Below are positions 1,369-54,343 of a stretch of DNA of 64,000 nt, in pieces. This DNA is from Polyangiales bacterium (lineage in GTDB: Bacteria; Myxococcota_A; Polyangia; Polyangiales; CBDCBC01): NCBI GenBank assembly GCA_965214225.1, contig OZ243942.1:712298-776297 (forward strand), written 5' to 3'. The stretch's first letter is position 1, and each line of letters opens with the position of its first letter. The notes below the pieces were generated by a model, which worked only from the letters and a program-made list of their open reading frames with translations, was not told the origin of the DNA and ran no database searches. Position numbers and translations under genes: made by a program.

Positions 1369-1468
1369 GCACAGTGCTTGAATGCACACAGCGCTTGAAT
1401 ACACACAGCGCTTGAATACACACAGCGCTTGAATACACACAGCGCTTGAATACACACAGCGCTCGAAA
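1369..1468. repeat. 17-bp tandem repeat, ~6 units (acacacagcgcttgaat)
   Basis: Direct reading gives units at 1384, 1401, 1418 and 1435, plus degenerate units at 1369 and 1452. More degenerate copies (ctagagggcacagcact) extend back to ~1345. The array lies between two convergent gene ends. Confidence 0.95.
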
Positions 1469-12248: not shown

Positions 12249-12626
12249 ATGTCAAAGCTGCACATAGAGAATGATGAGCGACGGGAACACGCCCGCTACT
12301 CCGTGTCGCTACAAGTCGATTACAGCGATGGCGAGCACTTCCTCTTTTCGTATATTGAGAATATTAGCCGGATGGGGATATTCCTTCGCTCCGACGATCC
12401 CTTCGAAATAGGTACTGAAATCACACTCCGATTCGCTCCTCCGGGGCAGACCGCATTCGCACTTGAGGGTGAAGTCATGTGGGTTAACCCTGTGGGCGCT
12501 ACAGGCGATGATCTAAATCCGGGGATGGGCGTACGCTTCACTAAGCTGTCGGCGCCTGAGCGTGAGAAGGTCGTCGAGCTCATCCGCACCATCGCTTACC
12601 TTCGGGAGGCAGAGCCATCAGAGTGA
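12249..12626 (+). CDS. PilZ domain protein (TIGR02266-like)
   Basis: Start moved to ATG 12249 (MSKLHIEN) to avoid overlapping the M23 gene. PilZ signatures RREHARY ... ENISRMGIFLRS ... GMGVRFTKL. Confidence 0.8.
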   Translation: MSKLHIENDERREHARYSVSLQVDYSDGEHFLFSYIENISRMGIFLRSDDPFEIGTEITLRFAPPGQTAFALEGEVMWVNPVGATGDDLNPGMGVRFTKLSAPEREKVVELIRTIAYLREAEPSE

Positions 12627-12819
12627 GCAGGGCCGTCAGAGTGAAGGGCGAGCGGCCAATCCCAGCGACGTGAGGCTGCACCGGCAGGTCTAGGTCAAGC
12701 GCTTCTAGATAGGGAGCCGGGTTGAGAGGCTGGCTCGAAAGCTTTCGCGAAAATCAAGAGCTGCTTGAAGAGAGCGCATCGGTACGGCCGCTCACGCTGC
12801 GGAAGGGAAGAGCTGTGAG

Positions 12820-14872: not shown

Positions 14873-14974
14873 GTGCAGGGTGAACTCAGGTGCAGGGTGA
14901 ACTCAGGTGTAGGGTAAACTCAGGTGTAGGGTAAACTCAGGTGCAGGGTGAACTCAGGTGCAGGGTGAACTCAG
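14873..14974. repeat. 17-bp tandem repeat x6 (gtgcagggtgaactcag)
   Basis: Six contiguous units read directly; units 3-4 carry the variant gtgtagggtaaactcag. The array is bracketed by a 20-nt direct repeat, gcaacCctacctcgtgcagg (14860) and gcaacGctacctcgtgcaagg (14977). Confidence 0.95.
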
Positions 14975-15037
14975 GTGCAACGCTACCTCGTGCAAGGCCA
15001 ACTTCGGTGCCGGCTGAGCGCCAGAAAGATGGGCGAC

Positions 15038-15460
15038 CTAGCGTTTCGAGTACTGGAACTTCTTTCGCGCACCCGGCTGACCCGGCTTCTTTCGCTCCTT
15101 CTTGCGATCATCACGAGTCAGGAAGCCAGACTTCTTGAGTTGCGCACGCAACTCAGGGTCAACTTTGATGAGTGCTCGCGATATGCCGTGTCGAACGGCT
15201 TCGGCTTGCGCCGATGTCCCACCGCCCGAGGTGGTGCAGCGAACATCGAATTTCTCTGACTGATCGGTTTGGTCAAAAGCCTGTTGGATGATCATGCGCG
15301 ACGTCTCACGAGGGAAGTAGTTTTCAAGCGACCGTCCGTTAACGCTGAACGTGCCCGAACCCGGCATAAGAAACACACGCGCCACTGCAGTCTTACGTCG
15401 CCCTGTCGCGTACGTGACTGGGGGAGCTTTTACACTCGACTTCTGCTCACTCGGACTCAT
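15038..15460 (-). CDS. rpsI: 30S ribosomal protein S9
   Basis: [14 protein letters not shown] and C-terminal [10 protein letters not shown]. 140 aa. Confidence 0.97.
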
Positions 15461-25588: not shown

Positions 25589-25672
25589 TTGTTAGGCAGC
25601 TAAGTACGATTGTTGGGCAGCTAAGTACGATTGTTGGGCAGCTAAGTACGATTGTTGGGCAGCTAAGTACGA
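25589..25672. repeat. 21-bp tandem repeat x4 (tgttgggcagctaagtacgat)
   Basis: Four contiguous units read directly. The array ends 19 nt before the start of the next gene (25692). Confidence 0.95.
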
Positions 25673-25691
25673 TGACTCGAGAGGATAACTT

Positions 25692-27494: not shown

Positions 27495-28235
27495 ATGCAC
27501 CTTCCTTCAGTGTCCATAAGCAGTCGCCGTGACATTCCTTCTACATCTGGGTACCCGCTTCCTGATCCTGCACCTTTAGATATCGGCGTAACCAGTCCAT
27601 CGGCACCAATAGATGGTGTGCTGGTGGACGGCACATTGGCTGGCAAGCCTGATCCCGTCCTGTCTTATTCTATACGTGATGCCATACCTGAAAGCCGTCT
27701 TAGCGAGCTTTCAGGAGCGTGTGCTTCCGCTGCTGCCTCACTTATTGTGTCCACACAGCAGCTTGGAAAGCTTGTTGCCTATGTGCATCTTGGTCAGAGC
27801 ACGTTCTATCCTCCAGACCTGCAGCACGCCGGCATTGATCTAGATTCGCTTCTGTTTGTTAGTGTTTCTAAAAGCATACAAACCATGCAGGCCACGGAGA
27901 TTCTGCTCAAGTCTGGAGCTTTCTCACTCATCGTTGTTGATCTAACCGGAGCGCAACCTCCTCGCCATTCTTCAACATGGCAGGGTCGATTGCTTGCACT
28001 TGTGCGAGCTCACCACAGCCGCGTGGTCTTCTTAACTTCTAAGAATGCAAATGATTGCTCTCTTGGTTCGCTAATCAGCACCCATCTTTTTCTATTCGCT
28101 CACTATACCCTTTCAGATGCTTGCAATCGCTCAAGAACAGAAGTTCGATTCAGCAAAGATAAGCTCGGCATAAGGAGTAAGTTTGGCAACCGTTCTCCCA
28201 GATGCGAAAGACTTAGACTTCTCCGATCATGGTGA
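27495..28235 (+). CDS. imuA: ImuA-like SOS mutagenesis protein (RecA-fold, SulA/ImuA family)
   Basis: RLSELSG....AA..L, FYPPDLQHAGIDLDSLLFV, EILLKSGAFSLIVVDL and W.GRLLALVRAHHSRVVFLT match the ImuA pattern. Located directly upstream of imuB. Confidence 0.75.
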   Translation: MHLPSVSISSRRDIPSTSGYPLPDPAPLDIGVTSPSAPIDGVLVDGTLAGKPDPVLSYSIRDAIPESRLSELSGACASAAASLIVSTQQLGKLVAYVHLGQSTFYPPDLQHAGIDLDSLLFVSVSKSIQTMQATEILLKSGAFSLIVVDLTGAQPPRHSSTWQGRLLALVRAHHSRVVFLTSKNANDCSLGSLISTHLFLFAHYTLSDACNRSRTEVRFSKDKLGIRSKFGNRSPRCERLRLLRSW

Positions 28236-28287: not shown

Positions 28288-29898
28288 GTGAGTCAGAGTG
28301 TCGCTTGTATTTACCTTCCTTCGTTTATGCTCCAATGGTCGTTGCGCGACTATTGGAAGCAGCCAGTGCAGCCTTCAGCCACAGTCGCTGAAGATCAGCC
28401 CACAGCCCCCTTGATCGACCTTAATCGCTGCGCACGCAGACTTCACCTTCACCACGGCATGAAGCAAAGCACGGCACGGTTGCTCGTGCCTTCCCTGCGC
28501 GTAGCTTGCGTCACTGCAGAAGGCACCGAACAAGTGTTAGAGGCGTTTTCTAGGAAGCTCTTAGTATTCTCTCCGCACGTGCATCAATGTGAGGCCATTC
28601 CTGGTGCATTTTTCTTCGATATTGCAGGACTGAGCTACCTCTACGCAACGCCCCAAGCATGGATTGAGGCTGTGAGCTGTTTCCTTGAAGAAGAGCGCTT
28701 ACATGCGCGAGCGGCTATTGGTTACACACGTCATCGCACATTTGCTGTGGCAACCGCTTATGCGGGCAAACGGGTGCTAAGCGCACGCGATGAACAACTT
28801 CTTTCTCAGAATGTGCCCATAGCAAAGCTGCCCTTTCCAGATTGGCTGAAACAAGAATGCCATCTACTTGGGATCCAGAAGGTGGCTGATTGGCTTTCAC
28901 TGGAGCGAGGTGAGGTGCTTGCTCGTTTGGGCAAAGAGGCCAGTGAACTGTTCGATTTCTTAGAAGGTTCACGCCCCTCCTCCATGCATCGTGTCGTTCA
29001 TCTCGAGGCTCCTCGTGTGCACCGAGAAATCGACCCTCCTGATGAAGACGTTCAGCGACTTTTGTTCACGCTAAAGAATGCTCTAGATGAACTTATTAAA
29101 ATCACTCAAGGGCGACTGCAAAAGATCCAGCGCCTGATCATCAAGCTTGAACTGGAACGGCATGAACCACATGTTCTAACCATTTCGCCTGCCGACCCTA
29201 CGTGTGATGTAACTGTGCTCATGGATCTGCTGCGGCTACACACACAAAAAGTTGATCTATCTTCAGGTGTTGAAGGAGTCATTGTAGAGGCTGAGTCTGC
29301 TGATGGCGAAAGTTACCAACCCTGGTTACTAGGTCAGCCTGTTCGCTACGATAAAGACGCTGCCAACCGCGCTGTTGCACGCCTCAGAGCTGCATTTGGT
29401 AATGACGCAGTCTCCGTGGCAGCCTCTAAAGAGGCTCACCTACCTGAAGCACAGTACTGCTGGAAAAGAGTAGACCATGTTAATGATCCCACGCCCTGTC
29501 TACCAGCCACCATGCAACCCCAAATTCGCCGCATTTTATCTAAGCCTCACCTTCTTAGTTCTTCGCAATTAAGATCATTGGAACTATGCGAAGGTCCTTT
29601 ACGGTTAAGTGGGGGATGGTGGGCAAGCACAACCACCCGCGACTACTACTACGCACTTCCCAAACCCTTGGAAGGCAAAACAGATCGTGAGCTGCGGTGG
29701 GTGAACGTACACTCTCATCCAGGATCTTCCTTGCTGAAACAACCCACCAAGGTAGCAGCTAGATTCAAAGGCGGTGCAGACGAGACAAGCAGTGCAGCTA
29801 GTGTAATAAGCAAGCCCGAGTGCGAATGTGCTCACTTCTACTGGATATTTTTTGACAAGAAGCGGAAGCGTTGGTTTCTCCACGGATGGTACGGGTAG
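28288..29898 (+). CDS. imuB: ImuB-like Y-family DNA polymerase paralog
   Basis: N-terminal ACIYLPSFMLQWSLR typical of ImuB. 536 aa. GTG start with GTGAGG SD. Gene order imuA-imuB. Confidence 0.8.
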   Translation: MSQSVACIYLPSFMLQWSLRDYWKQPVQPSATVAEDQPTAPLIDLNRCARRLHLHHGMKQSTARLLVPSLRVACVTAEGTEQVLEAFSRKLLVFSPHVHQCEAIPGAFFFDIAGLSYLYATPQAWIEAVSCFLEEERLHARAAIGYTRHRTFAVATAYAGKRVLSARDEQLLSQNVPIAKLPFPDWLKQECHLLGIQKVADWLSLERGEVLARLGKEASELFDFLEGSRPSSMHRVVHLEAPRVHREIDPPDEDVQRLLFTLKNALDELIKITQGRLQKIQRLIIKLELERHEPHVLTISPADPTCDVTVLMDLLRLHTQKVDLSSGVEGVIVEAESADGESYQPWLLGQPVRYDKDAANRAVARLRAAFGNDAVSVAASKEAHLPEAQYCWKRVDHVNDPTPCLPATMQPQIRRILSKPHLLSSSQLRSLELCEGPLRLSGGWWASTTTRDYYYALPKPLEGKTDRELRWVNVHSHPGSSLLKQPTKVAARFKGGADETSSAASVISKPECECAHFYWIFFDKKRKRWFLHGWYG

Positions 29899-35640: not shown

Positions 35641-35694
35641 CAGTAGTCGAGCTGCTGGCCCAGTCAAGCTGCTGGCCCAGTCAAGCTGCTTGCT
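35641..35694. repeat. 17-bp tandem repeat x3 (cagtcaagctgctggcc)
   Basis: Units at 35641 (20 nt variant), 35661 and 35678. The last unit overlaps the ku stop codon (35693-35695) by 2 nt. Confidence 0.9.
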
Positions 35695-36619
35695 AACTTG
35701 CAGAGGCCTTACGGCGCTTGTTGGACTTCGCCGCTCTTGACTTGCTAGGAGGCTTCAAAGCGTCGGCTTTCTTCTCCGTGGTCCTGCTCTTCTTCGTGGT
35801 CCTGCTCTTCTTCGTGGTCGGTTTCTTCTCCGCAGGTTCTGTCGCATCGAGGCTCGCCCTAAGTGCGTTGAAGAGGTCGATGACCTGCGCCTTAGGCGCA
35901 GCCGCAGGCTGCTTGACCTCTTGCCCCTCAGCCTTAGCTTCGATAGCGCTCAACACCCGCTTCCGATAGGTATCCTCGTACTTCTTTGGCTGAAAAGCTG
36001 CGGCTGTGAGCTGGTCAACCAGTTGGTCTGCAAGCTTTTGCTCTTCGGCTTTAAACTTAACTTCCTCACCTAGCTCAACGTCTTTAAAAGACCGCACCTC
36101 GTTGGCATGAAACAGCTGATGAAGTATAAGGCCCTCCTCGTAGGGCCGAACCATCACCAGTTGCTCTTTTCCCCGCGTGTGGAACCGACCCACCGCCACA
36201 GTCTGCGTGTCAATCATCGCCTGCCGGAGCAAGCGATAAGCGCGTGAACCGCCCTTGTCGGGACCTAAGTAGTACGATTTGTCAACGTAGAGCAGGTCAA
36301 CCGTCTCCTGAGGGACAAACTCCGCAATCTCCAACTGCTTGCTCTTTTCTCCCTCGAGCGCAGCAAGCTCCTCTTCATCGAGCTGAACGTACTGGTCCTT
36401 CGCAACCTCGAAGCCCTTTACGATTTCATCCCTACCGACCACTTCGTCGTGCACCGGGCAGTAAAGCTGCTGTTTGAGTCTGCTGCCGCACCCTTTGTGG
36501 AGCTGGTTGAAGCGCACCTGCTGAGAAGATGCTGCCGTGAACAGCTTTACGGGGATGGCTACAAGGCCAAAGGATAGTGTGCCGGAGCTTACAGCGCGAG
36601 CGGCCATGGACGTAAGCAT
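35693..36619 (-). CDS. ku: NHEJ DNA end-binding protein Ku
   Basis: AVSSGTLSFGLVAIPVKLFTAAS Ku N-terminus and Lys-rich C-terminal tail. Start chosen at ATG 36619 (GAGGA 9 nt upstream); the ORF-track start at 36784 is unlikely. Confidence 0.92.
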   Translation of the reverse strand: MLTSMAARAVSSGTLSFGLVAIPVKLFTAASSQQVRFNQLHKGCGSRLKQQLYCPVHDEVVGRDEIVKGFEVAKDQYVQLDEEELAALEGEKSKQLEIAEFVPQETVDLLYVDKSYYLGPDKGGSRAYRLLRQAMIDTQTVAVGRFHTRGKEQLVMVRPYEEGLILHQLFHANEVRSFKDVELGEEVKFKAEEQKLADQLVDQLTAAAFQPKKYEDTYRKRVLSAIEAKAEGQEVKQPAAAPKAQVIDLFNALRASLDATEPAEKKPTTKKSRTTKKSRTTEKKADALKPPSKSRAAKSNKRRKASAS

Positions 36620-36850
36620 ACCGCATTTCCTCTGGCTGAGACCAAACTTCCGGCGGAAGGCGCCTCCGGGTGCACGATCAGATTGAGAAGAGGGTACATA
36701 CGAGACGGTTTTTGAGGGGTCGTGCCTTCGCCGCAGCGTCCCGTGATCCTGTGGGTCAAGTAGACGCGGGAGATGACTACGCACCCCTCATTCATGTTAC
36801 TTTGAGCGGATGATCTTACACGACCCACTTTATCGCACCTCCACCAACCC

Positions 36851-37267
36851 TTGAGCTACGTCAGCTCTGAAAAGCGCGCTGAACTTGAAGCTCGTCTGCT
36901 ACGGCTTGGCGTCAGGGAGGAGGAGCTCAGCGAGAAGTTTATCCGGGGAGGGGGACCGGGAGGGCAAAAGATCAACAAAACCTCAGTAGCCGTTCAACTG
37001 ATCCACCTTCCGACTAAAACGGAGGTGCGAGTGCAAAGCTCACGCTCCCAAGCGACCAACCGCTTCCTTGCGAGGCGCCGTCTAGCGGAGCTTTTAGAAG
37101 CTGAGAAAGAGGAGCACCTTAGCAAGCAAGCTAGGGAGCGCGCTAAACTGCGGAAGCAGAAAAGAAGGCGCAGCAAGCGCGCCAAAGACAAAGTCATTCA
37201 AGCTAAGAAGCAAGTAGGAGAGAAAAAGCGGCTAAGGCAGAAGGTGAACAAGCATGGTGACGACTAA
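36851..37267 (+). CDS. RF-1 domain (GGQ motif) peptidyl-tRNA-hydrolase-like protein
   Basis: GGPGGQKINKTSVAVQL GGQ motif with a basic C-terminal tail (KLRKQKRRRSKRAKDK). 138 aa. TTG start. The 3' end overlaps the ligD start by 14 nt. Confidence 0.8.
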   Translation: MSYVSSEKRAELEARLLRLGVREEELSEKFIRGGGPGGQKINKTSVAVQLIHLPTKTEVRVQSSRSQATNRFLARRRLAELLEAEKEEHLSKQARERAKLRKQKRRRSKRAKDKVIQAKKQVGEKKRLRQKVNKHGDD

Positions 37268-39803
37268 AACAGTCTACGAGGCCAAACGTAAGCCTACCAA
37301 AACCCGCGAGCCCTTTGCCGCCGAGCGCTCGAACGCGACTCAGCGCGTCGGTGCATTCGTTGTTCATCTGCACGCCGCGCGTCGGCGGCACTACGACTTG
37401 AGGATCGAGCATCGCGGCACGTTGCTCAGTTTCGCAGTGCCAAAGGGCCCCAGCATCAACCCCAAAGACAAGAGGCTTGCAGTACAAACGGAGGACCATC
37501 CGCTCGAGTACCTCCACTTTGAAGACGTCATCCCGGAAGGCAACTACGGCGCAGGCGCCATGATAGTCTGGGATCAGGGGCAGATAGAGTATCTCAACGA
37601 TCCAGATGAAGGCGAGACAGCAGGCAAGCTTGACTTCAACCTGTGGGGCTACAAGCTACGCGGCCACTTCGCCCTCGTAAAGATGAAGCAGCAGGACGCT
37701 GCCCAACCTCAGTGGTTGCTGCTCAAGAAAAAGGATGCGTTCGCTTCAGATGCGCACGGATTCTTGGATCGTCACCCGCAAAGCATTCTCTCAGGTCTAA
37801 CGGTGGAAGAACGCGCGGATCCGTCTCTTCGGCTCGCCCCAGTGAGCAAGAAACTGGATGGAATTGTCGAGAAATCGCCGTTAGCAAGCCTCGGTCGGTG
37901 GAAGCCCATGCTGTGCCGACGGGAGCGACACGTCGCCCTTACGCAAGAGGGCTGGCTCTACGAGCTCAAGCTCGATGGTGTGCGGATCATTGCGTGGAAG
38001 CACGAAGAGACCGTGTCTCTAGCCTACCGGAGCGGACGCTCCGCAGATCGGGACTTCCCCGAGGTGCGCCGCGCGCTTGCAGCTTGGCCTTTTCGCCAGA
38101 TCAAGCTCGACGGAGAGATTGTTGCTTTCGACGAAGAAGGCAGACCGAACTTTGAGCTGCTGGCCGGGCGTCTGCACCACTCGGCAGCTGAGCGCTCAGA
38201 CAAGCGACCGAGTTTCTCCGTGACTTATATGCTCTTTGACCTTGTGGCGCTGAGTGATTTCGATCTGTGCAAGGTCCCACTTCAGCAACGTAAAGAACTG
38301 CTCTCGATGATCGCTCCGCGGAACGGACCTTGCCGCTACCTTGAGCACCTAGCAGACGACGGAGCACCTTTACATGCCTTCAGCGTGGAGCATCACCTTG
38401 AGGGAATCGTCGTAAAGAAGGCAAGCTCCGCATACCGCCCGGGCAAGCGCACCGATGAGTGGATCAAGGTCAAGCGAGAGCGCGAAGACCTCTTCGTAGT
38501 CGTAGGCTACACCTTCGGAACAGGCACGCGTGCAAGCCTCGGTGCCCTCGACCTCGCGTCGTTCCGCGCCGGCTCGTGGGTCGCTCGAGGCAAGGTAGGA
38601 AGCGGTCTCACGGAGTCTTCCATCCACACCCTACGGAGTTCACTCACAGAACTCGATGACGAAGACCTTCCACTTGAAGGTGCGCTGTCTCCTGCACCTG
38701 GCGGTCGCACGATGTGCAAACCCGAGTGCGTGGTCCGAGTCCGCTACCACGGCTTCACATCCGATGGACGGCTTCGCTTCCCTGTGTTTGTTGCGCTCGA
38801 ACCGAACGTGCGTCCAGAGGACTGCCAAGCGGCTCCTCACGCATCGATGTCTCCCACAGCATCAATGTCCCCCACAGCATCAGTGCTTCCCACAGAGCTT
38901 CCGTTGGAGCGGCCACGCGTTTCGAAGGTTACCAATGCCGACAAGGTCTTTTTCCCGCTCATTAACCTCACGAAAGGAGACCTATACCGCTACTACGAAG
39001 CTATCGCACCAACCATCCTCACTTACATAAGCGGACGACCCTTAGCCGTGGTGCGCTATCCCGACGGCATAGACGGGAAAAGCTTCTATCAATGGAGAGC
39101 GCCTCAAGGAGCGCCCTGCTCGGTTCAGCAAGTGGCGCTTCCGCTAAGGGAGGGCAAATCGTCGCGCACCCACGCCTTCCTTATCGACAGCTCGGAAGGG
39201 CTCTTGCACTTGATCAACCTGGGCGCGATTCCCTTGCACATCATGGCTTGCCAAGTTCCGAACTTGGAGGTGTGTGACTTCCTCACGATCGACTTGGATC
39301 CAGGAGACGCCACATGGGCCGAGACCATTGAGTTGGCACGGTGCGCGCATGAGTTACTGGAGGAAGTCGAGCTTCCAAGCTTCCCGAAAACTTCAGGCAA
39401 GGAGGGGCTGCACATCCTTGTCCCGCTCGGCGCCGACGTTCCCTTTGGCGCCGCACGTCAGCTCTGCGACTTACTCGGCCACCTCCTGGTTGAGCGAAAG
39501 CCACACATCGCGACGCGCGAGCACCGCATCGCTAAACGCGGGAAGAAAGTATACGTCGACACCGGGCAAGTCGGGCCCGTGCGAACGATTGTCAGCCCCT
39601 ACTCCGTCCGGGCAACGCCCCACGCCACGGTCTCAACCCCTCTTTTTTGGAGAGAGGTATCCTTGGCCATGCAACCTCAGCAGTTTACCATTCTGAGTGT
39701 GCCAGAAAGAGTGCACGAAGTGGGGGATCCAATGGCCGGCTTGCAAGGTGCGTCCTTGGACCTGCGCGAGAAGCTCCGCTCGTTACAGACTCTGATCAGC
39801 TGA
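37254..39803 (+). CDS. ligD: multidomain ATP-dependent DNA ligase LigD (phosphoesterase-ligase-polymerase)
   Basis: PE domain FVVHLHAARRRHYDLRIE. Ligase adenylation motif YELKLDGVR. C-terminal Pol/primase domain (TNADKVFFP...GRPLAVVRYPDGIDGKSFYQ). 849 aa. Confidence 0.93.
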   Translation: MVTTKTVYEAKRKPTKTREPFAAERSNATQRVGAFVVHLHAARRRHYDLRIEHRGTLLSFAVPKGPSINPKDKRLAVQTEDHPLEYLHFEDVIPEGNYGAGAMIVWDQGQIEYLNDPDEGETAGKLDFNLWGYKLRGHFALVKMKQQDAAQPQWLLLKKKDAFASDAHGFLDRHPQSILSGLTVEERADPSLRLAPVSKKLDGIVEKSPLASLGRWKPMLCRRERHVALTQEGWLYELKLDGVRIIAWKHEETVSLAYRSGRSADRDFPEVRRALAAWPFRQIKLDGEIVAFDEEGRPNFELLAGRLHHSAAERSDKRPSFSVTYMLFDLVALSDFDLCKVPLQQRKELLSMIAPRNGPCRYLEHLADDGAPLHAFSVEHHLEGIVVKKASSAYRPGKRTDEWIKVKREREDLFVVVGYTFGTGTRASLGALDLASFRAGSWVARGKVGSGLTESSIHTLRSSLTELDDEDLPLEGALSPAPGGRTMCKPECVVRVRYHGFTSDGRLRFPVFVALEPNVRPEDCQAAPHASMSPTASMSPTASVLPTELPLERPRVSKVTNADKVFFPLINLTKGDLYRYYEAIAPTILTYISGRPLAVVRYPDGIDGKSFYQWRAPQGAPCSVQQVALPLREGKSSRTHAFLIDSSEGLLHLINLGAIPLHIMACQVPNLEVCDFLTIDLDPGDATWAETIELARCAHELLEEVELPSFPKTSGKEGLHILVPLGADVPFGAARQLCDLLGHLLVERKPHIATREHRIAKRGKKVYVDTGQVGPVRTIVSPYSVRATPHATVSTPLFWREVSLAMQPQQFTILSVPERVHEVGDPMAGLQGASLDLREKLRSLQTLIS

Positions 39804-39837: not shown

Positions 39838-40013
39838 GTAACCGGTCAGTCCCTGGTTAGTCGGTTTTCGAGGAGGTTGTGCATTCGAGTGCGCCCGCAG
39901 AACCCCACCGGAGCGCACTCAAGTGCGCGAGGATGGGGTTTGAGGACGTAAACCGAATGCACAGCCTCCTCGGGAAGCGTCCTTTCCCGGTCGGAAAGCC
40001 ACTGACCAGTTAC
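39838..40013 (+). mobile_element. MITE copy C (176 bp)
   Basis: TIRs are gtaaccggtcagt and actgaccagttac. A perfect 9-bp TSD CGAACCAAG lies at 39829-39837 and 40014-40022. Collinear with copy B over its full length. Confidence 0.9.
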
Positions 40014-46760: not shown

Positions 46761-47840
46761 GTGGGAGTAGACTCCGCTGATATGCTGCAAACAAAGCCGA
46801 CAGAGGCCGCACCGTCTCGCGTAGCCCAAGCCTCCTACTATGGCGCGCACGCTGCCGCCTTTGCGATTTTTGGTCTGGCGCAGCGCGCGACGCGACGCCT
46901 GCTCAAGCAGGACACGCAGTCCGACGTGGTGCTGCAGCGCGAGCTGCGAACGCGGTATCTCGACCTGCTCGCTCAGGATTTGCGAAACGTGACCGACGGC
47001 ATCTATCCTGCTCAAGCATTGCGTGAACTTCCCGTTGACCACTATGCAAGGCAGCTCCCCAACCTCTTGACCGAGCTCCCTCGCCTGCACCGCCGACGTG
47101 AACGCGTGGGGTACAGCGAACTGCCGGTGTCCGCTAAGTTGGAATCTTACCCGCCCTATTATCGGCGAAACTTTCACTGGCAGAGCGACGGCTATCTTAG
47201 CCGTGAGTCGGCGAAGCTCTATGACCTCTCGGTGGAGTTTCTGTTTTTAGGCGCAGCGGATGTCATGCGACGGCAAGTGGCGCTTCCAATGAGGCAGTGG
47301 GCTGACCGACGCAACGCGTCCACCCCCCTGCGCATCCTCGACGTGGGTTGTGGCACAGGGCGCACCTTGCAACAACTTCTGTTCGCCTTTCCAGAAGCCG
47401 AGCTTATAGGCGTGGACCTGAGCGAGCCATACGTCGCCTTTGCAAGACAGAGCTTCACCGATCACACAAACGCCACATTCGTCTGCGATAATGGCGAATC
47501 GCTGCCGTTTCCTAACCACGACTTTGACATCGTCACCAGCACCTACCTCTTCCATGAGTTACCCAAGTTTACCCGCCGACGCGTGATTGCCGAGATGCGT
47601 CGTGTGCTCAAACCGGGCGGCCTCGCAGTCGTTCAGGATTCAGTGCAGAGAAATGACAGCGCAACGCTGATGCCCGTACTAGACGCGTTCCACCGCGACT
47701 TTCATGAACCTTTCTACCGACACTACCTTGAAGATGATCTCGAGGAACTGTTCGCTGAAAGTGGCATCCGCGTGGAAGAGAGTAAGGTGAACTTTGTTGC
47801 TAAGACCGTATCCGGCACTCTACCCTCTGTGCACCACTGA
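46761..47840 (+). CDS. class I SAM-dependent methyltransferase
   Basis: ILDVGCGTGR motif I and VLKPGGLAVV post-I/II motifs. Confidence 0.8.
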   Translation: MGVDSADMLQTKPTEAAPSRVAQASYYGAHAAAFAIFGLAQRATRRLLKQDTQSDVVLQRELRTRYLDLLAQDLRNVTDGIYPAQALRELPVDHYARQLPNLLTELPRLHRRRERVGYSELPVSAKLESYPPYYRRNFHWQSDGYLSRESAKLYDLSVEFLFLGAADVMRRQVALPMRQWADRRNASTPLRILDVGCGTGRTLQQLLFAFPEAELIGVDLSEPYVAFARQSFTDHTNATFVCDNGESLPFPNHDFDIVTSTYLFHELPKFTRRRVIAEMRRVLKPGGLAVVQDSVQRNDSATLMPVLDAFHRDFHEPFYRHYLEDDLEELFAESGIRVEESKVNFVAKTVSGTLPSVHH

Positions 47841-47986
47841 GTTACTCCGACCACTGAGTTACTCCGACCACTGAGTTACTCCGACCACTGAGTTACTCCG
47901 ACCACTGAGTTACTCCGACCACTGAGTTACTCCGACCACTGAGTTACTCCGACCACTGAGTTACTCCGACCACTGAGTTACTCCGA
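47834..47986. repeat. 17-bp tandem repeat x9 (ccactgagttactccga)
   Basis: Nine exact contiguous units followed by decaying copies to ~48040. Unit 1 contains the last two codons and the TGA stop of the methyltransferase gene (cac cac tga). Confidence 0.97.
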
Positions 47987-48292
47987 CCACTGAATCACGC
48001 GGGTAACTGAATCACATCGACCGCTGAGTCACATCGACTTCTGGCCACGGTGCGTCCCTCTGCCCGCTGCGCCTCGCCAGACTACGATAGATAACCGGTT
48101 TGGGCTGACGGATGTGTAGAGGCTGGAGCGTGTAGCGGTGTGAGCTCGTCGCTATGCTGCTGTCATTACCACACCACTTATGACAAATGCCATAAATGGC
48201 GTGGGACTTGCTGGTTCCACCTGCACGCATCAATCGCACCTGGGTGAGCCGTGCTAGGGTGGCAGGATGCTTGCGCGAACGGTGGCGGTTCG

Positions 48293-49663
48293 ATGGAAAT
48301 AGCCGGCTGGGGAAGACAAGGCGTGGAGGGGCAGGAGCTGTTTTCTGAGCACCTGCTCCCGCTCGGAGCCACGGGTGCTCTCTCTCGGGGGCTCGGCCGC
48401 TCCTACGGCGACTCGTCTTTACCTCCAAGTTCCAACCCCATTGCAATCAACACCACATTTGCCGACCGGCTGATCCGCTTCGACTCGGAGAGTGGAGAAC
48501 TCCACGCAGAAGCGGGATTTAGGCTCCTAGACCTCAACCGCATCTTCTGGCCTCGCGGCTGGACAACGCCTGTGTCGCCCGGAACTCAATACGTCACCCT
48601 TGGGGGCATGGTGGCGTCCGACGTGCACGGAAAAAACCACCACGTCGAAGGTTGCTTTGGCAACCATGTGTTGGCGCTTCGAATGCTGCCTGGCTCGGGT
48701 GAAGCCACATGGTGCTCGCGCACCGAGCATCCAGACCTTTTCTGGGCCACGGCAGGTGGCATGGGACTGACCGGCCATATCCTTGAGGTTAAGCTCCAAC
48801 TCAAACCCATTGCGTCAGCGTGGATCTGGGGCGAGAGCGAACGAATCGACAACCTGGACGCGTTTTTGCGCGGGTTGGATGAGGCCGCTACCTCGTGGCC
48901 GTACACCGTGGGTTGGATCGACGCTCTAGCTAAGGGACACCGCACAGGGCGCGGGATCCTCTACAAGGGGCGCTGGGCACAACCGGAGGAGGCTCCTGCG
49001 CGTCTGCCTAAGCCGCGAGCACGCCTCTCTGTCCCCGTGGAGTGCCCGTCGTGGGTGATGGGGCGGGCGGTGGTGCGTGGCTTCAACTTCCTCTACTTTT
49101 GGAAGCACCTGAAGCGCAAGCGCGTGGGGATAGTTCACCCTGAGTCCTTCTTCTATCCGTTGGACGTCGCCCTGCATTGGAATCGGCTTTATGGACGGCA
49201 AGGCGTCGTGCAGTACCAGTGCGTCCTGCCGAAAGCAGCCGGGGCAGATGGCGTCAGGCGCATGCTCCAGGTGCTCAGCCAACGAGGCGGTGCCTCCTTT
49301 CTATGCGTCCTCAAAGACTGCGGACCCGAGGGACAGGGGCTTCTTTCGTTTCCGATGCAGGGAACGTCCATCGCGCTCGACCTTCCCCTCCGACCGCAGA
49401 CGCAAGAGCTGGTGGATGCACTCAATGAGCAGCTCCTGCGCGAGGGCGGACGCATCTACCTCACCAAAGATGCGCTGACACGCCCGCACCATTTCCGTCA
49501 GATGGAGTCCCGTCTGGCGGACTGGCAGAGTGTGCGCCACCGCTGGGACCCGGAAAGACGCTTTGGCAGCGCTCAAGCCGAGCGCTTACTCGACGCATCC
49601 CCTAGCCCACCCCCTAATAATGCAGCGATGAGCCAAAGGTTCACGCGAGGAGGTAACCAATGA
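48293..49663 (+). CDS. FAD-binding oxidoreductase, DprE1-like (decaprenylphosphoryl-ribose 2'-oxidase family)
   Basis: Collinear motifs shared with mycobacterial DprE1 as recalled: GWGR, RGLGRSYGD, TLGGMVASDVHGKNHH, FGNHV, LFWATAGGMGLTG, YPLD..WNRLYG..G..QYQ and GGRIYLTKD. ATG 48251 is an alternative start. Confidence 0.82.
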   Translation: MEIAGWGRQGVEGQELFSEHLLPLGATGALSRGLGRSYGDSSLPPSSNPIAINTTFADRLIRFDSESGELHAEAGFRLLDLNRIFWPRGWTTPVSPGTQYVTLGGMVASDVHGKNHHVEGCFGNHVLALRMLPGSGEATWCSRTEHPDLFWATAGGMGLTGHILEVKLQLKPIASAWIWGESERIDNLDAFLRGLDEAATSWPYTVGWIDALAKGHRTGRGILYKGRWAQPEEAPARLPKPRARLSVPVECPSWVMGRAVVRGFNFLYFWKHLKRKRVGIVHPESFFYPLDVALHWNRLYGRQGVVQYQCVLPKAAGADGVRRMLQVLSQRGGASFLCVLKDCGPEGQGLLSFPMQGTSIALDLPLRPQTQELVDALNEQLLREGGRIYLTKDALTRPHHFRQMESRLADWQSVRHRWDPERRFGSAQAERLLDASPSPPPNNAAMSQRFTRGGNQ

Positions 49664-50394
49664 ATATCGTGCTCTTTGGCGCCACAAAAGGAATGGGCCG
49701 TGCACTGGCGCGCAGGTGCGCCCAACGTGGTGACCGGCTCTTCCTCCTGGGACGCCACCTGGAAGACCTGGAGCGCAGCGCATGTGACCTGCGCATCCGC
49801 GCAGAAGCTGATGTGGGCTCGGCATACTGCGATCTTGCGGAACCGGACAGTTTCGAGCCAGCGGCCGGCGCAGCGCGCGAGCACCTTGGCAGAGTGGACG
49901 CTGTGGTGGTCACAGCGGGTGTATTTGCTACCCAGGCCGCACTGGAGCGCGACGCGCAGCAATGCCGCGATTTGCTCACCCTCAACTTTGTCAACACCGT
50001 CCTCTTCTGTGAAATCTTTAGACGCCTCTTACTCGCCCAAGGCGGAGGCACGTTGTGCGTCTTCAGCTCTGTGGCCGGTGATCGAGCGCGCAAACCGGTA
50101 ATCATCTATGGCGCGAGCAAAGCCGGTCTTTCGCACTACTTGGAGGGTCTCGACCACAAGTACGCGCATCAGGGGTTGCACGTGGTCACGGTCAAACCCG
50201 GATTTGTTAAAACCTCGATGACCGCTGCACTCAAACCTCCTCCGTTCGCGGGGACCCCTGAGCAGGTCGCAGAGCAGGTGGCTCGAGCGCTCGAGAAGAA
50301 GCCGCCCGTCGTCTACACACCGAAGATTTGGCGGCTCGTGATGATGGTGATTCGTGCCGTTCCCCGATTCGTTATGCGAAAGGTCTCATTTTAG
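49660..50394 (+). CDS. short-chain dehydrogenase/reductase, DprE2-like
   Basis: LFGATKGMGRALA Rossmann motif and YGASKAG catalytic motif. The C-terminal WRLVMMVIRAVPRFVMRK tail resembles DprE2. 4-nt overlap with the upstream gene. Confidence 0.8.
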   Translation: MNIVLFGATKGMGRALARRCAQRGDRLFLLGRHLEDLERSACDLRIRAEADVGSAYCDLAEPDSFEPAAGAAREHLGRVDAVVVTAGVFATQAALERDAQQCRDLLTLNFVNTVLFCEIFRRLLLAQGGGTLCVFSSVAGDRARKPVIIYGASKAGLSHYLEGLDHKYAHQGLHVVTVKPGFVKTSMTAALKPPPFAGTPEQVAEQVARALEKKPPVVYTPKIWRLVMMVIRAVPRFVMRKVSF

Positions 50395-50424
50395 AGCTGC
50401 AGTTACTTTTAGAGCTGCAGTCAC
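50389..50424. repeat. 18-bp tandem repeat x2 (ttttagagctgcagttac)
   Basis: Two adjacent units (17/18 identical). Unit 1 contains the TAG stop (50392-50394) of the SDR gene. Confidence 0.9.
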
Positions 50425-50649
50425 ATTGTTGCCAAAATCCGTCCTCGGAATGTTTTGTGCACGTAGGCAATCGCATCTAGCTTTGGGGGCAGTGATGAAT
50501 CGTCTTGATCTAGTGGCGACGCACTTTGGAAGGGCCGTGCGTCGTGTTGGCCAGCCGGGGTGACCTGCTTGAGCGCAGACGCATCGCCGTGGCTGGCCCG
50601 CGGGCCGATACATCGCCGCTCACTCAGCGGGACCCACCGTCCTTTGGAC

Positions 50650-51190: not shown

Positions 51191-51277
51191 TAGCCGCCTT
51201 CGCGCGCGGCCTTCTCTGTGAGCTGGATGAGGTCTTGCATCTTGTCGCAGAAGAACGATTGTGATTTGCTCACAGTC

Positions 51278-51883: not shown

Positions 51884-52041
51884 CCACGCCTTGACGCAAG
51901 CCGGTCACAAGGCCACCGACGTGCACTGCCTACAGGCAACCAGCGACAACTTCCGTTCCGGGAACCCAGCGCCGGGATGCCGACGCCAGAGTGCCACCCA
52001 TCCGCTACACACCGCATCCTACGTAGAAGCGGAGACCCATC

Positions 52042-52081
52042 CCTGTGCCCTGACTCATTCCTGTGCCCTGACCCATGTGCC
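52042..52081. repeat. 18-bp tandem repeat x2.2 (cctgtgccctgactcatt)
   Basis: Units at 52042 and 52060, plus a partial third. The array lies ~30 nt downstream of the peroxiredoxin stop (minus strand). Confidence 0.85.
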
Positions 52082-52822: not shown

Positions 52823-52894
52823 CACAGTGCCAGCCCTGGACACAGTGCCAGCCCTGGACACAGTGCCAGCCCTGGACACAGTGCCAGCCCTGCA
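52823..52894. repeat. 18-bp tandem repeat x4 (cacagtgccagccctgga)
   Basis: Three exact units and one variant unit read directly. Located between the glycosyltransferase stop and the peroxiredoxin start. Confidence 0.95.
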
Positions 52895-52938
52895 GACGCC
52901 TTGGCAGAGAAGCGACTGACTCGCTACGCGTTCGACTA

Positions 52939-52990
52939 CCGTGGGGCTTAGCTTGCCGTGGGGGCTTGGCTTACCGTGGGGCTTGGCTTT
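52939..52990. repeat. 17/18-bp tandem repeat x3 (ccgtggggcttggctta)
   Basis: Three adjacent imperfect units. On the minus strand the array begins 7 nt after the glycosyltransferase stop codon (52998-53000). Confidence 0.9.
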
Positions 52991-52997
52991 CCGCACG

Positions 52998-54158
52998 TCA
53001 AGCGCCGACCCGCAACCCTTGCGGCGCAGCAGCGGCTCCTTCTCGATGGCGGTCGCGCCAGGCGTCGACAACCTCATCATAGCGCTCCTCCAACACCTGC
53101 ACACGCTGTCGGTTGTCATACTCCCGCTCCATTTTTTCCCTACCGGCACGGCCGAGCTCGCGGCGGAGTTCAGCTGAGCCCGCCAGCCGGACAATATGCG
53201 CCGCCATGCCGCTCACATCACGCTCGGGCACGAGGTATCCCGTCTTACCATCGTCGATAATCTCAGGGATGCCTCCGTGTCGAGAGCCGATCGGAACGAC
53301 GTGACTCGCGCACGCCTCTTTAGCCACCATCAGGCCTGAGTCGCGATCCCCGTTGCTAGCTACAACGCTCGGAGCGAGCAGAATGTCGCTCGTGCTCAGC
53401 TGTTTGGCCACTTGGGAGCTTGAGAGGGATCCGAGCCAGCGGAGAGACTGACCCAGCTTGAGATCGTCGGCCAGCTGCCTGAGCTTGGACTCGAGCTTGC
53501 CTGAACCCACGATATCAAGACGCACATCTGCGCCATCCTGACGAGCTTTTGCAAAAGCTCGGATGCCGTATGCGAAACCCTTCTTCTCAATGAAACGTCC
53601 TACCATGAGGACGCGTGCTGTCTTTCTATCGTGCTGCGACGGCGAAAACCGTGAGAGCTCAAGCCCTAGGCGGTGAACCACCAACTTCTCGCGTGGAACG
53701 CCAAGCTCGAACAGCAACTCCCGAAGCTCATCCGATGCACAGAGCCCCAGCGCCATGTACCGAAGAAGCGCCTTGCTGCGCACCGCGTACGGCCAGAAGA
53801 CGGGTGAGAAGCGCCACCAGTCGCGGAACACCGCCACGTCGTAGCCGTGAAAGGTCACCACCAAGGGCAGATCGTGACGCTCGGCAAACGGCAGAGCGTA
53901 GCAACCACCCGTGCCAAAGTGCGCGTGAACCAACGCAAACTGCCTCTCTCTGAAGAGGCGATCGAAGCGACGACAGCGAGCTGTGGCGATGTATGACGGG
54001 TGGGCTACGTGAACCGGCTTATAGGGGAACCGCTTCTTGAGCATATGTCGCCATGCGAAAACATCCGCGTGGTAACGCCGGTGCGCAACGAGCTCGTTGT
54101 AGATGAAGGTCTGCGAGTAAGGTAGGAAGTACGTGGAGAAAACGGCAACGCGGCGCAT
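52998..54158 (-). CDS. GT4-family glycosyltransferase
   Basis: GT-B fold pattern (VTFHGYDV; VGRFIEKKGF; C-terminal ...KEACASHVVPIGSRHGGIPEIIDDGKTGYLVPERD). Confidence 0.75.
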   Translation of the reverse strand: MRRVAVFSTYFLPYSQTFIYNELVAHRRYHADVFAWRHMLKKRFPYKPVHVAHPSYIATARCRRFDRLFRERQFALVHAHFGTGGCYALPFAERHDLPLVVTFHGYDVAVFRDWWRFSPVFWPYAVRSKALLRYMALGLCASDELRELLFELGVPREKLVVHRLGLELSRFSPSQHDRKTARVLMVGRFIEKKGFAYGIRAFAKARQDGADVRLDIVGSGKLESKLRQLADDLKLGQSLRWLGSLSSSQVAKQLSTSDILLAPSVVASNGDRDSGLMVAKEACASHVVPIGSRHGGIPEIIDDGKTGYLVPERDVSGMAAHIVRLAGSAELRRELGRAGREKMEREYDNRQRVQVLEERYDEVVDAWRDRHREGAAAAPQGLRVGA

Positions 54159-54343
54159 GGAAATCCTCAAGTTTGGTCTGACATAGCAGAAAACACGTGC
54201 CGGAGCGGGTTGAACTAGCGCGGCCGCCTGCCGGCGCTCTGGCTACGTATGAGCTGACGCTCGCGCGACGCTTCAGCGCGGAAAGCATCGCCGCCGATTT
54301 ATCCTCCTTTGCGTACACGGTCGACCTAAGACATACCCTGGCT

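What the first reader, a model, noticed from the sequence alone, without database searches (positions are those of the whole stretch)
47834..48000. Nine exact 17-bp tandem units whose first unit contains the stop codon: flagship of a window-wide class of 17-18-bp arrays at gene 3' ends
ccactgagttactccga is repeated 9 times exactly and then decays. Unit 1 supplies the last two codons and the TGA of the methyltransferase gene (cac cac tga). Across the window I count more than 12 sequence-unrelated tandem arrays. Their periods are 17 (1369, 14873, 35641, 47834), 17/18 (52939) and 18 (12618, 50389, 52042, 52823, plus in-frame 35770 and 38841), with outliers of 15, 21, 22 and 24. Five arrays start 0-7 nt from a stop codon (12618, 35694, 47834, 50389, 52990). 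Most others lie within ~100 nt downstream of one. Different sequences sharing one period and one position argue for a shared generating mechanism or shared function, not a spreading repeat family. Because 17 = 18-1, the one TGA per unit rotates through all three frames every three units. This array is therefore a stop ladder in every frame. That may or may not be meaningful.
Basis: partly seen in the sequence, partly recalled or inferred. Interest (0 to 1): 0.7.

Follow-up and report, generated by a model that had tools for sequence, protein, structure and literature searches.

The report
Seventeen-base minisatellites beside bacterial gene ends
The nine exact 17-base repeats after the methyltransferase gene are real, but they are an ordinary bacterial minisatellite (a variable-number-type tandem array) that happens to include the gene's stop codon. 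The only unexplained point is why this genome, like Yersinia pestis, so strongly favours units of 17-18 bases.

Summary
**Observation: confirmed.** Window 47833-47993 holds 9.5 perfect copies of ACCACTGAGTTACTCCG. Three decayed units follow, to about 48036. Unit 1 carries the TGA of a class-I SAM methyltransferase, and the protein's C-terminus sits where its homologues end.

**Class of arrays: real.**
- Sixteen intergenic or gene-end arrays cover about 11% of the intergenic DNA.
- Nine have period 17 or 18, including the three largest.
- Their units are unrelated to each other.
- Period 17 accounts for 6 of 20 arrays here, against 0 of 267 in 1.28 Mb of related Myxococcota DNA.

**Position claim: weaker.** Five of 16 arrays touch a stop codon, against 2.1 expected (P = 0.045). 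Three or four touch start codons.

**No sign of function.** I found no terminator, no RNA family, no shared motif and no flanking hairpins.

**Published parallel.** Yersinia pestis VNTR tables show the same picture. Noncoding units have a mode of 17 bp, 67% fall in 16-19 bp, and ten loci overlap stop codons.

**Best reading.** These are locally born minisatellites that grow by slippage. They persist where a unit length not divisible by three does no harm, such as 3' flanks, convergent spacers, or a segment that includes the stop codon. The 17-18 bp preference probably reflects how slippage depends on unit length, but that is unproven.

**Limits.** This is a new member of a known kind. The source genome and any close relatives were unavailable, so genome-wide statistics and copy-number variation could not be tested.

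The parts
47833..47993 (.). Flagship array: 9.5 exact copies of the 17-bp unit ACCACTGAGTTACTCCG
   Evidence: TRF: period 17, 100% matches, score 322. Sequence read directly.
47994..48036 (.). Two and a half decayed units at the end away from the gene (…ATCACGCGG, GTAACTGAATCACATCG, ACCGCTGAGTCACATCG). This is the older part of the same array.
   Evidence: Register-wise print-out. 12 of 17 positions match the core unit.
46761..47840 (+). Class-I SAM-dependent methyltransferase gene (UbiE-like). Its last codons and its TGA (47838-47840) lie in unit 1.
   Evidence: Pfam Methyltransf_25/11/12. 100% match to P0001 and about 50% identity to Myxococcota homologues. C-terminus in register with homologues.
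48251..50394 (+). Downstream FAD-binding oxidase (48251..49663) and short-chain dehydrogenase (49660..50394). They start 257 nt after the exact array. The stop codon of the second gene lies in the 18-bp two-copy array at 50389-50424.
   Evidence: Pfam, gap table, repeat D4.
1370..1467 (.). 17-bp x 5.8 array in a convergent spacer. It grew inside a truncated copy of the dispersed palindromic Family A element (1440-1507).
   Evidence: TRF, blastn of spacers, alignment A2. The unit matches a contiguous 17-mer of the element, and TTCGAG recurs 17 nt apart in an unexpanded paralogue (39815 copy).
12609..12644 (.). 18-bp x 2 array. Unit 1 is the last five codons plus the TGA of a PilZ-domain gene. 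Unit 2 is untranslated.
14873..14979 (.). 17-bp x 6.3 array (unit pattern AABBAA) flanked by 15-17-nt decayed units. It lies 58 nt downstream of rpsI (15038..15460, minus strand) and 106 nt upstream of a semialdehyde dehydrogenase gene.
35645..35695 (.). 17-bp x 3 array. Its third, diverged unit carries the TAG of the ku gene (35693..36784, minus strand).
52034..52076 (.). 18-bp x 2.4 array in a convergent spacer, 34 nt from the stop of a peroxiredoxin gene.
52823..52892 (.). 18-bp x 3.9 exact array in the spacer between the glycosyltransferase and peroxiredoxin genes (both on the minus strand).
52937..52993 (.). 17/18-bp x 3.3 array ending 4 nt from the TGA of the glycosyltransferase gene (52998..54170, minus strand). 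The stop-proximal bases are a decayed unit.
25589..25673 (.). Array of another period (21 bp x 4.0), 18 nt upstream of a start codon. Other-period arrays also lie at 7440 (13 bp), 24217 (14), 33735 (15), 40874 (23), 42010 (20) and 43182 (24).

Best explanation
**The flagship array.** It is a bacterial minisatellite, that is, a VNTR-type array. A 17-bp stretch of local DNA that straddles the 3' end of the methyltransferase gene was duplicated head to tail. It was then amplified one unit at a time by out-of-register re-pairing during replication, or by unequal exchange between sister strands. The copied stretch contains the stop codon, so the first copy still ends the protein at its normal place and all further copies are untranslated. 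The event is therefore harmless. The nine identical units next to the gene are recent. The three diverged units on the far side are the older remains of the same array.

**The window-wide class.** It arises the same way at many independent sites. Selection then filters the result. Units not divisible by three are removed from coding sequence. Large arrays are removed from promoter regions. What remains sits in 3' flanks, in convergent spacers and in stop-overlapping positions.

**The 17-18 bp preference.** Most likely, expansion by slippage depends on unit length. Units of about 16-19 bp are long enough for one unit to hold a misaligned duplex, and still short enough to arise and loop out often. 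Shorter and longer duplications are born, but rarely grow.

**What is shown and what is inferred.**
- Shown: the anatomy, the independence of the units, the excess of 17-18 bp, the lack of terminator or RNA signals, and the published parallels.
- Inferred: slippage as the motor, selection as the filter, and the length optimum as the ruler.
For: - **Anatomy.** Perfect head-to-tail units with a decay gradient and variant blocks typical of stepwise duplication. The array at 14873 reads AABBAA, and the arrays at 1370 and 47833 have decayed flanks.
- **Protein unchanged.** The methyltransferase end is in register with 21 homologues.
- **Independent origins.** Units are unrelated. The lag-17 autocorrelation of intergenic DNA disappears once the arrays are masked.
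- **Local origin seen directly.** The 1370 unit is a contiguous 17-mer of a dispersed element. An unexpanded paralogue (the 39815 copy) carries TTCGAG twice, 17 nt apart.
- **Birth versus growth.** Two-copy duplications have periods from 13 to 27. The three largest arrays are all 17 bp.
- **Excess of period 17.** 6/20 against 0/267 in relatives.
- **Selection filter.** None of the nine 17/18-bp arrays lies in a divergent (promoter-only) spacer. The only 18-bp arrays inside genes are in frame.
- **No function signals.**
- **Published parallels.** In Y. pestis noncoding VNTRs of 10 bp or more, 26 of 39 are 16-19 bp with a mode of 17. Ten VNTRs overlap stop codons, seven of them with 16-19-bp units (PMC3689786). 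In X. citri the most polymorphic intergenic minisatellites are 16 and 18 bp (PMC4045669). Tandem repeats are generally enriched downstream of stops and upstream of starts in prokaryotes (PMC12418385).
Against: - The sample is one 64-kb window with 16 arrays. The source genome could not be retrieved.
- No close relative exists in the databases. Copy-number variation, the defining behaviour of a VNTR, is therefore untested.
- A simple length optimum does not obviously predict so narrow a peak. It also does not explain why related Myxococcota show no 17-bp arrays at all.
- Clean two- to four-copy arrays have integer copy numbers with at most 2 nt of junction microhomology. Classical microhomology-seeded slippage does not predict this.
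- Stop-touching arrays exceed the random expectation (P = 0.045). The 17/18-bp arrays differ in position from arrays of other periods (P = 0.003, post hoc). This leaves room for something specific to 3' ends.
Confidence: 0.6

Rival explanations
1. **A dedicated molecular ruler makes the duplications.** Staggered breaks or unprocessed flaps of about 17-18 nt are filled in and joined. Candidates are the Ku/LigD end-joining system encoded in this window, or faulty Okazaki-flap processing. Each event would add one unit of fixed length, whatever the sequence.
For: - The period peak is narrow, with unrelated sequences.
- Clean arrays have integer copy numbers and at most 2 nt of junction microhomology, which suggests blunt joins.
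- ku (35693..36784) and a full three-domain ligD (37254..39803) are present.
Against: - Two-copy duplications in the window have broad periods (13-27). The ruler, if any, acts on growth and not on birth.
- The same 16-19-bp mode occurs in Y. pestis (PMC3689786), an enterobacterium that to my knowledge lacks Ku/LigD.
- No nicking or recognition motif is shared among the units.
- Related Myxococcota were not checked for NHEJ genes and show no 17-bp arrays.
Confidence: 0.15
2. **The arrays are functional 3'-end elements.** Examples would be loading sites for the Rho termination factor, RNA-stability or protein-binding platforms in 3' untranslated regions, or a barrier of stop codons in all frames. 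Selection would keep them at gene ends.
For: - Five of 16 arrays touch a stop, against 2.1 expected (P = 0.045).
- Seven of nine 17/18-bp arrays sit in convergent spacers or on stops, against 0 of 7 others.
- The flagship unit is C-rich and G-poor in the mRNA sense (6 C, 3 G of 17) and weakly structured, like a Rho loading site.
- Classical hairpin-plus-U terminators are not seen at gene ends.
- Li et al. noted unexpectedly low diversity at some stop-overlapping Y. pestis VNTRs.
Against: - C/G bias in the transcribed sense is inconsistent across arrays. The arrays at 35645, 52823, 12609 and 25589 are G-rich or neutral, as read from the units.
- There is no shared motif, no RNA family and no conserved structure.
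- Nine identical units indicate very recent amplification, not conservation.
- Orthologous gene ends in 79 relatives carry no comparable array. Eight have unrelated small arrays with periods 14-30.
- The stop ladder is an automatic property of such units.
Confidence: 0.1
3. **The arrays are remnants of one mobile element family that carried an internal 17-bp minisatellite.** This would resemble the BrickBuilt MITE of Porphyromonas gingivalis. The units would since have diverged by separate homogenisation at each locus while keeping the period.
For: - The 1370 array and the 13-bp array at 7420-7484 lie inside copies of a dispersed palindromic element, Family A.
- The window holds at least two dispersed intergenic repeat families.
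Against: - The unexpanded Family A copies (16203-16378 and 39838-40013) have no array, so the array arose after insertion.
- The other 17/18-bp arrays share no flanks with each other and no unit similarity.
- No inverted-repeat ends flank them.
Confidence: 0.07
4. **Assembly or sequencing artefact.** The arrays, or their copy numbers, would have been created by the assembler.
For: - The source is a single 3.53-Mb contig from a public assembly of unknown method.
- Copy numbers of exact repeats are the least reliable part of any assembly.
Against: - There are sixteen separate arrays with different units, internal variants and decayed flanks.
- In-frame versions lie inside intact conserved genes (ku, ligD).
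- One array lies inside a recognisable paralogous element.
- These are features of real evolutionary history, not of assembler error.
Confidence: 0.02

Closest known systems
Yersinia pestis VNTR / minisatellite loci used for MLVA typing, such as ms05, ms01 and N0171 (Li et al. 2013, PMC3689786)
   Same: - Head-to-tail arrays of unrelated units scattered in intergenic DNA.
- Noncoding loci of 10 bp or more have a mode of 17 bp, with 26 of 39 in the 16-19 bp range.
- Ten loci have the stop codon of the upstream gene inside the repeat. Seven of these have 16-19-bp units, for example ms05 TTAGCCCATATCAGTAA.
- In-ORF loci are multiples of three.
   Different: - A different phylum (Gammaproteobacteria against Myxococcota).
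- Copy-number variation is demonstrated there and untestable here.
- Y. pestis also has a large 7-9-bp class that is not evident in this window.
Mycobacterial interspersed repetitive units (MIRU)
   Same: - Tandem intergenic arrays.
- By my recollection, units can overlap the stop codon of the upstream gene.
   Different: MIRU properties below are from my recollection of Supply et al. 1997, not checked here.
- MIRU units are 40-100 bp and belong to related sequence families.
- They sit inside operons and also supply the start of the downstream gene.
- Here the units are 17-18 bp and unrelated to each other, and the next gene starts 257 nt after the array.
BrickBuilt, a minisatellite carried by a MITE in Porphyromonas gingivalis (Klein et al. 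2015, PMC4596501)
   Same: - A spacer-free minisatellite (23-bp unit) that is always intergenic and linked to a small mobile element.
- The 1370 array here also sits in a dispersed palindromic element.
   Different: - BrickBuilt has the same unit at all 19 loci, plus leader and tail ends with inverted repeats.
- Here every array has its own unit, and the flagship has no such flanks.
Xanthomonas citri minisatellites Xcc4748 (16 bp) and Xcc3816 (18 bp) (Pruvost et al. 2014, PMC4045669)
   Same: - Intergenic 16-18-bp units are the most expandable and polymorphic of the 31 minisatellites. They have 10 and 7 alleles.
   Different: - X. citri intergenic minisatellites as a whole span 10-205 bp, with no 17-bp mode.

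Membership tests
Bacterial minisatellite / VNTR | Head-to-tail copies of a unit of about 10 bp or more, with no spacers | tested here: met
   TRF gives 17 bp x 9.5 copies, 100% matches, no indels. Sequence read.
Bacterial minisatellite / VNTR | The unit derives from local sequence, and loci are independent of each other | tested here: met
   Pairwise cyclic similarity is near chance. No shared k-mers. The 1370 unit traces to the local element sequence.
Bacterial minisatellite / VNTR | Internal variants and decay consistent with stepwise gain and loss of units | tested here: met
   AABBAA pattern at 14873. Decayed distal units at 47994-48036. Decayed flanks at 1370.
Bacterial minisatellite / VNTR | Copy number varies between strains | not testable with these tools
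   The source genome is absent from genome contigs. No protein is closer than 51% (methyltransferase) or 73% (RF3) identity. The unit is absent from metagenome and viral collections.
CRISPR array | Repeats separated by unique spacers of similar length | tested here: not met
   Units abut directly, and period equals unit length.
MIRU-type intergenic repeat | Units of 40-100 bp belonging to a dispersed related family | tested here: not met
   The unit is 17 bp, and units at different loci are unrelated.
MIRU-type intergenic repeat | The repeat carries both the upstream stop and the downstream start (translational coupling within an operon) | tested here: not met
   The stop is inside unit 1, but the next gene starts 257 nt after the exact array.
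MITE-borne minisatellite (BrickBuilt type) | Same unit at all loci, flanked by leader and tail with inverted-repeat ends | tested here: not met
   The flagship flanks match no other spacer beyond chance; the only hit is 64% array-to-array similarity to 14873. Only weak inverted repeats (77-89% complementary) lie in the spacer downstream of it, and no terminal pair brackets the array. Only the 1370 array lies in a dispersed palindromic element, and its paralogues lack the array.
Intrinsic (Rho-independent) terminator | G+C-rich hairpin followed by a U run just after the gene | tested here: not met
   No terminator-like site lies between 47841 and 48250. The 25 sites found in 20 kb (17 expected) lie mostly inside genes. 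The array RNA folds weakly, z = -1.9.
Rho-dependent terminator (rut region) | At least 70-80 nt of C-rich, G-poor, poorly structured RNA downstream of the stop | tested here: inconclusive
   The flagship fits by composition (6 C and 3 G per 17 nt) and by weak structure. Other 17/18-bp arrays are G-rich or neutral in the transcribed sense (units). Rho dependence cannot be tested here.
Iterons (replication-origin repeats) | Repeats of 17-22 bp next to a replication initiator gene or origin, usually spaced for helical phasing | tested here: not met
   The neighbours are a methyltransferase, an oxidase, RF3 and other housekeeping genes. The units are contiguous, and arrays are scattered over 64 kb of chromosome.

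The most novel reading that the evidence does not exclude
A conserved physical ruler of about 17 bp governs minisatellite growth in bacteria. Candidates are the duplex length held by polymerase plus sliding clamp, or the length of an unprocessed lagging-strand flap. This would explain why unrelated arrays in a Myxococcota genome, in Yersinia pestis and among the most mutable Xanthomonas loci all converge on 16-19 bp. Gene 3' ends would then be preferred birthplaces, because something about the end of translation or transcription provokes the initiating lesion.
Probability: 0.18. Interest if true: 0.65.

Novelty: new member of a known kind. Interest (0 to 1): 0.35.

Why it matters
- **Practical use.** The arrays would be ready-made strain-typing markers for an otherwise unstudied lineage with a small genome.
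- **Annotation.** Stop codons and short C-terminal tails next to such arrays can shift with copy number.
- **Open question.** Noncoding bacterial minisatellites cluster at 16-19 bp in at least two unrelated lineages (this genome and Y. pestis). That pattern is visible in published tables, but the papers I read do not discuss it. It could be tested cheaply in two ways. One is a survey of period histograms across genomes. The other is synthetic arrays of graded unit length. A sharp optimum would report on the geometry of the slipped replication intermediate.

Tried and rejected
**Retrieving the source genome or close relatives**
- Exact-protein look-ups found nothing on record.
- Cluster look-up gave only '3.53-Mb contig, NCBI/ENA', with no name.
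- The genome-contig scan returned only relatives at 43-52% identity.
- The repeat unit is absent from metagenome and viral collections.
- A scan with the Family A core gave 36 chance hits, with no real homology on re-blast.

**Orthologous comparison of gene ends**
- There is no synteny with any of the 80 related loci. Only a count of arrays downstream of orthologous methyltransferases was possible.

**Hidden signals**
- No hidden 17-18 periodicity remains in spacers after masking the arrays.
- No common ancestry of units, and no shared recognition motif.
- No hairpins flank the arrays; only two weak inverted repeats lie downstream of the flagship.
- No RNA family or terminator.

**GC-dependence of a stability threshold**
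- I tried to test this in relatives and abandoned it. My crude coding/noncoding classifier left mostly multiple-of-three arrays, so true noncoding arrays there are too few.

**Literature**
- Two Y. pestis founding papers are not held in the library.
- The first full-text search was uninformative.
Full report
**1. What is there**

Tandem Repeats Finder reports 47833-47993 as 9.5 copies of ACCACTGAGTTACTCCG, with 100% matches and no indels. The sequence itself confirms this. It also shows three further units that diverge progressively away from the gene: ACCACTGAATCACGCGG, GTAACTGAATCACATCG and ACCGCTGAGTCACATCG.

The ORF 46761..47840(+) is a class-I SAM methyltransferase. It ends GTG CAC CAC TGA, so its last codons and stop codon lie in unit 1. 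Aligned with 21 homologues, its C-terminus falls in the normal, variable tail region. The array has therefore not lengthened or truncated the protein.

**2. The setting**

- The window is chromosomal. It carries rpsI, RF3, a class-I aminoacyl-tRNA synthetase, sigma-54, and ku and ligD. It is about 57% G+C.
- It comes from a single 3.53-Mb contig held by NCBI/ENA.
- The nearest proteins are from Polyangiales/Sandaracinaceae-type Myxococcota. Identity is only 51% for the methyltransferase and 73% for RF3.
- The genome itself could not be retrieved.
- My curated gene map leaves 9.26 kb (14.5%) intergenic: 11 convergent, 10 divergent and 23 head-to-tail spacers.

**3. The class**

At score 50 or more the window has 20 non-overlapping arrays: six of period 17, five of period 18, and one or two each of 13, 14, 15, 20, 21, 23, 24 and 27.

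Sixteen arrays are intergenic or overlap a gene end. They occupy about 1.0 kb of the 9.26 kb of spacer. The three largest are all 17 bp, with 9.5, 6.3 and 5.8 copies. Two-copy duplications have periods spread over 13-27.

The only 18-bp arrays inside genes are in frame. They lie in the Ku C-terminal tail and in the LigD inter-domain linker.

The lag-17 peak in the autocorrelation of intergenic DNA (0.287 against a background of about 0.26) vanishes when the arrays are masked. The phenomenon is therefore a set of discrete arrays and not a diffuse property of the spacers.

**4. Is the period preference real?**

In 80 related Myxococcota loci (1.28 Mb), the same TRF settings give 267 arrays. They are dominated by multiples of three, and none has period 17.

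| Comparison | Window | Relatives | Fisher P |
|---|---|---|---|
| Period 17, all arrays | 6/20 | 0/267 | 5e-8 |
| Period 17, among periods not divisible by three | 6/10 | 0/53 | 3e-6 |

A cruder internal test gives 8 of 15 TRF-detected intergenic arrays at 17-18 bp, against a uniform spread over 13-24. That yields P = 0.001, or about 0.014 after allowing for the choice of bin. Arrays of three or more copies are about 3.7 times denser here than in the relatives. The preference is real for this window. Whether it holds genome-wide is untested.

**5. Are the arrays related?**

No.
- The mean best cyclic match between 17/18-bp units is 9.36 positions, against 8.96 ± 0.14 for shuffled units. Part of that small excess comes from comparing the flagship with its own decayed unit.
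- No 4-, 5- or 6-mer is shared by more arrays than in shuffles.
- Spacer-against-spacer blastn finds no common flanks for the flagship.

That same search uncovered two dispersed repeat families. Family A is a hairpin element of about 175 nt (z = -9.6) with four copies. The 17-bp array at 1370 lies inside a truncated Family A copy. Its unit matches a contiguous 17-mer of the element. One unexpanded paralogue (the 39815 copy) carries the hexamer TTCGAG twice, 17 nt apart, and the other two carry near matches. This is a direct view of a local sequence turning into an array after the element had inserted.

**6. Is position special?**

Five of 16 arrays touch a stop codon (12609, 35645, 47833, 50389, 52937). 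Sliding each array at random within its own spacer, and allowing one unit of overlap into genes, gives 2.1 expected (P = 0.045).

Three or four arrays touch or overlap start codons: 33735, 40874 and 42010, with 25589 at 18 nt. In head-to-tail spacers the mean relative position of all arrays is about 0.47 on a scale where 0 is the stop side. For the 17/18-bp arrays alone it is about 0.28 (n = 5, not significant). These figures are my own arithmetic.

A post-hoc contrast is stronger. Seven of nine 17/18-bp arrays lie in convergent spacers or on a stop, against none of seven arrays of other periods (Fisher 0.003; 0.007 without the by-eye array at 50389). None of the nine lies in a divergent spacer, but divergent spacers are only 18% of spacer length.

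The 3'-end association is therefore suggestive and not established. 'Within 100 nt of a stop' says little in spacers this short.

**7. Signs of function**

None was found.
- No Rfam family reaches the gathering threshold in the window. None reaches E ≤ 1 around the flagship.
- No terminator-like site follows the methyltransferase. Such sites in 40-60 kb are barely above the shuffle expectation (25 against 17 ± 4) and lie mostly inside genes.
- The array RNA folds only marginally better than shuffles (z = -1.9).
- No inverted repeats flank the 17/18-bp arrays, apart from two weak ones downstream of the flagship.
- The flagship unit is C-rich and G-poor in the mRNA sense (6 C, 3 G), like a Rho loading site. 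Several other arrays are G-rich or neutral in the transcribed sense (units).
- Nine identical copies speak for recent amplification and not for conservation.
- Orthologous methyltransferase genes in 79 relatives have no comparable array. Eight have small unrelated arrays with periods 14-30 within 300 nt of the stop. Synteny is absent.

**8. What is already known**

Li et al. (2013; PMC3689786) tabulate 88 Y. pestis VNTRs. I counted their Table 1. Loci outside ORFs or overlapping ORF ends, with motifs of 10 bp or more, and excluding the CRISPR locus, distribute as follows:

| Motif length (bp) | 10 | 12 | 14 | 15 | 16 | 17 | 18 | 19 | 20 | 21 | 22 | 41 | 45 |
|---|---|---|---|---|---|---|---|---|---|---|---|---|---|
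| Loci | 2 | 2 | 2 | 1 | 7 | 9 | 6 | 4 | 2 | 1 | 1 | 1 | 1 |

The mode is 17, and 26 of 39 fall in 16-19 bp. Their Table 2 lists ten VNTRs whose repeat contains the stop codon of the upstream gene, with units of 16, 18, 8, 19, 19, 8, 18, 41, 19 and 17 bp. It lists six that contain a start codon. The authors note that variation at the stop-overlapping loci should matter little for the protein.

In X. citri, the most polymorphic intergenic minisatellites are 16 and 18 bp (PMC4045669). A 2025 survey shows that tandem repeats are generally enriched downstream of stops and upstream of starts in prokaryotes (PMC12418385).

The flagship, and the class, therefore belong to a documented kind. In the papers I read, I did not see the 16-19-bp clustering discussed or explained.

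**9. Mechanism**

I commit to local birth plus slippage-type growth plus selective filtering. A duplication that includes the stop codon leaves the first copy of the gene end intact. It is as harmless as a purely intergenic duplication. Units not divisible by three are lethal inside genes, and large arrays disturb promoters. That accounts for the in-frame 18-bp arrays inside genes, the empty divergent spacers and the stop overlaps.

For the period, the data fit a model in which duplications of many lengths are born but units of about 16-19 bp grow best. This step is inference.

Two points speak against a simple story.
- The peak is narrow and absent from the related genomes.
- Clean low-copy arrays have integer copy numbers with at most 2 nt of junction microhomology.

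These points keep a dedicated-ruler model alive, such as fill-in of staggered breaks by the Ku/LigD system encoded at 35693-39803, or unprocessed flaps. The Y. pestis parallel argues against NHEJ as the common cause, because to my knowledge Y. pestis lacks it.

**10. Verdict**

Independent arrays and a real period preference hold up. The positional claim is only weakly supported. A shared function is unsupported.
- This is a new member of a known kind, with one unexplained quantitative feature worth a cheap cross-genome test.

Noticed in passing
window 16203-16378, 39838-40013, 7284-7541, 1440-1507: Family A is a dispersed intergenic element of about 175 nt that folds into a near-perfect long hairpin (DNA fold -63 kcal/mol, z = -9.6). 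The first two copies are 88% identical. Two of the four copies have spawned internal tandem arrays: 13 bp at 7420-7484 and 17 bp at 1370-1467. There is no Rfam match. It looks like a MITE-type or structured repeat element.
   Followed up: partly
window 57024-57195, 58128-58300, partial 60524-60560: Family B is a dispersed repeat of about 173 nt, 93% identical between two copies that both lie just downstream of gene ends. Its conserved core, CCACCCAGGTTGATTTTGTAGTCA, includes one of the few terminator-like hairpin-plus-T sites found by the scan (57020-57036).
   Followed up: no
window 50649-51190 (inside the 823-nt gene-poor stretch 50395-51217): A tandem duplication with a period of about 271 bp, two copies 94-97% identical. 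Each copy contains a perfect hairpin, GAGGGTCTGGGTGCCAGACCCTC. TRF did not report it. There is no Pfam hit for the overlapping ORFs and no credible Rfam hit. It could be a duplicated small RNA or small gene.
   Followed up: partly
window 35693-39803: A complete end-joining repair cluster. It comprises ku (minus strand), an ArfB-like RF-1-domain ribosome-rescue gene (36851..37267) and a three-domain ligD (phosphoesterase, ligase, primase-polymerase). Both ku (35770-35819, C-terminal tail) and ligD (38841-38895, inter-domain linker) carry in-frame 18-bp tandem repeats.
   Followed up: partly
window 27495-29898: A RecA-like small protein (27495..28235) is followed by a weak Y-family-polymerase-like protein (28288..29898; IMS family, E = 1e-4, just below Pfam's cut-off). 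This resembles an imuA-imuB damage-inducible mutagenesis cassette. No dnaE2 follows in the window.
   Followed up: no
whole window: The source is a single 3.53-Mb contig whose housekeeping proteins are only about 50-73% identical to any other sequence in a collection of 5.8 billion proteins. It was not found in the metagenome collection with two DNA probes (the repeat unit and the Family A core). That is unusually small and isolated for a Polyangia-like myxobacterium, and suggests a reduced, possibly host-associated lineage. GC skew is negative across the whole window (cumulative -0.94).
   Followed up: partly
window 7647-9377, 43424-44926, 51218-51883, 389-1270, 40919-41755: Several well-scoring ORFs of 220-576 aa have no Pfam family at E ≤ 0.001. 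They were not examined further.
   Followed up: no
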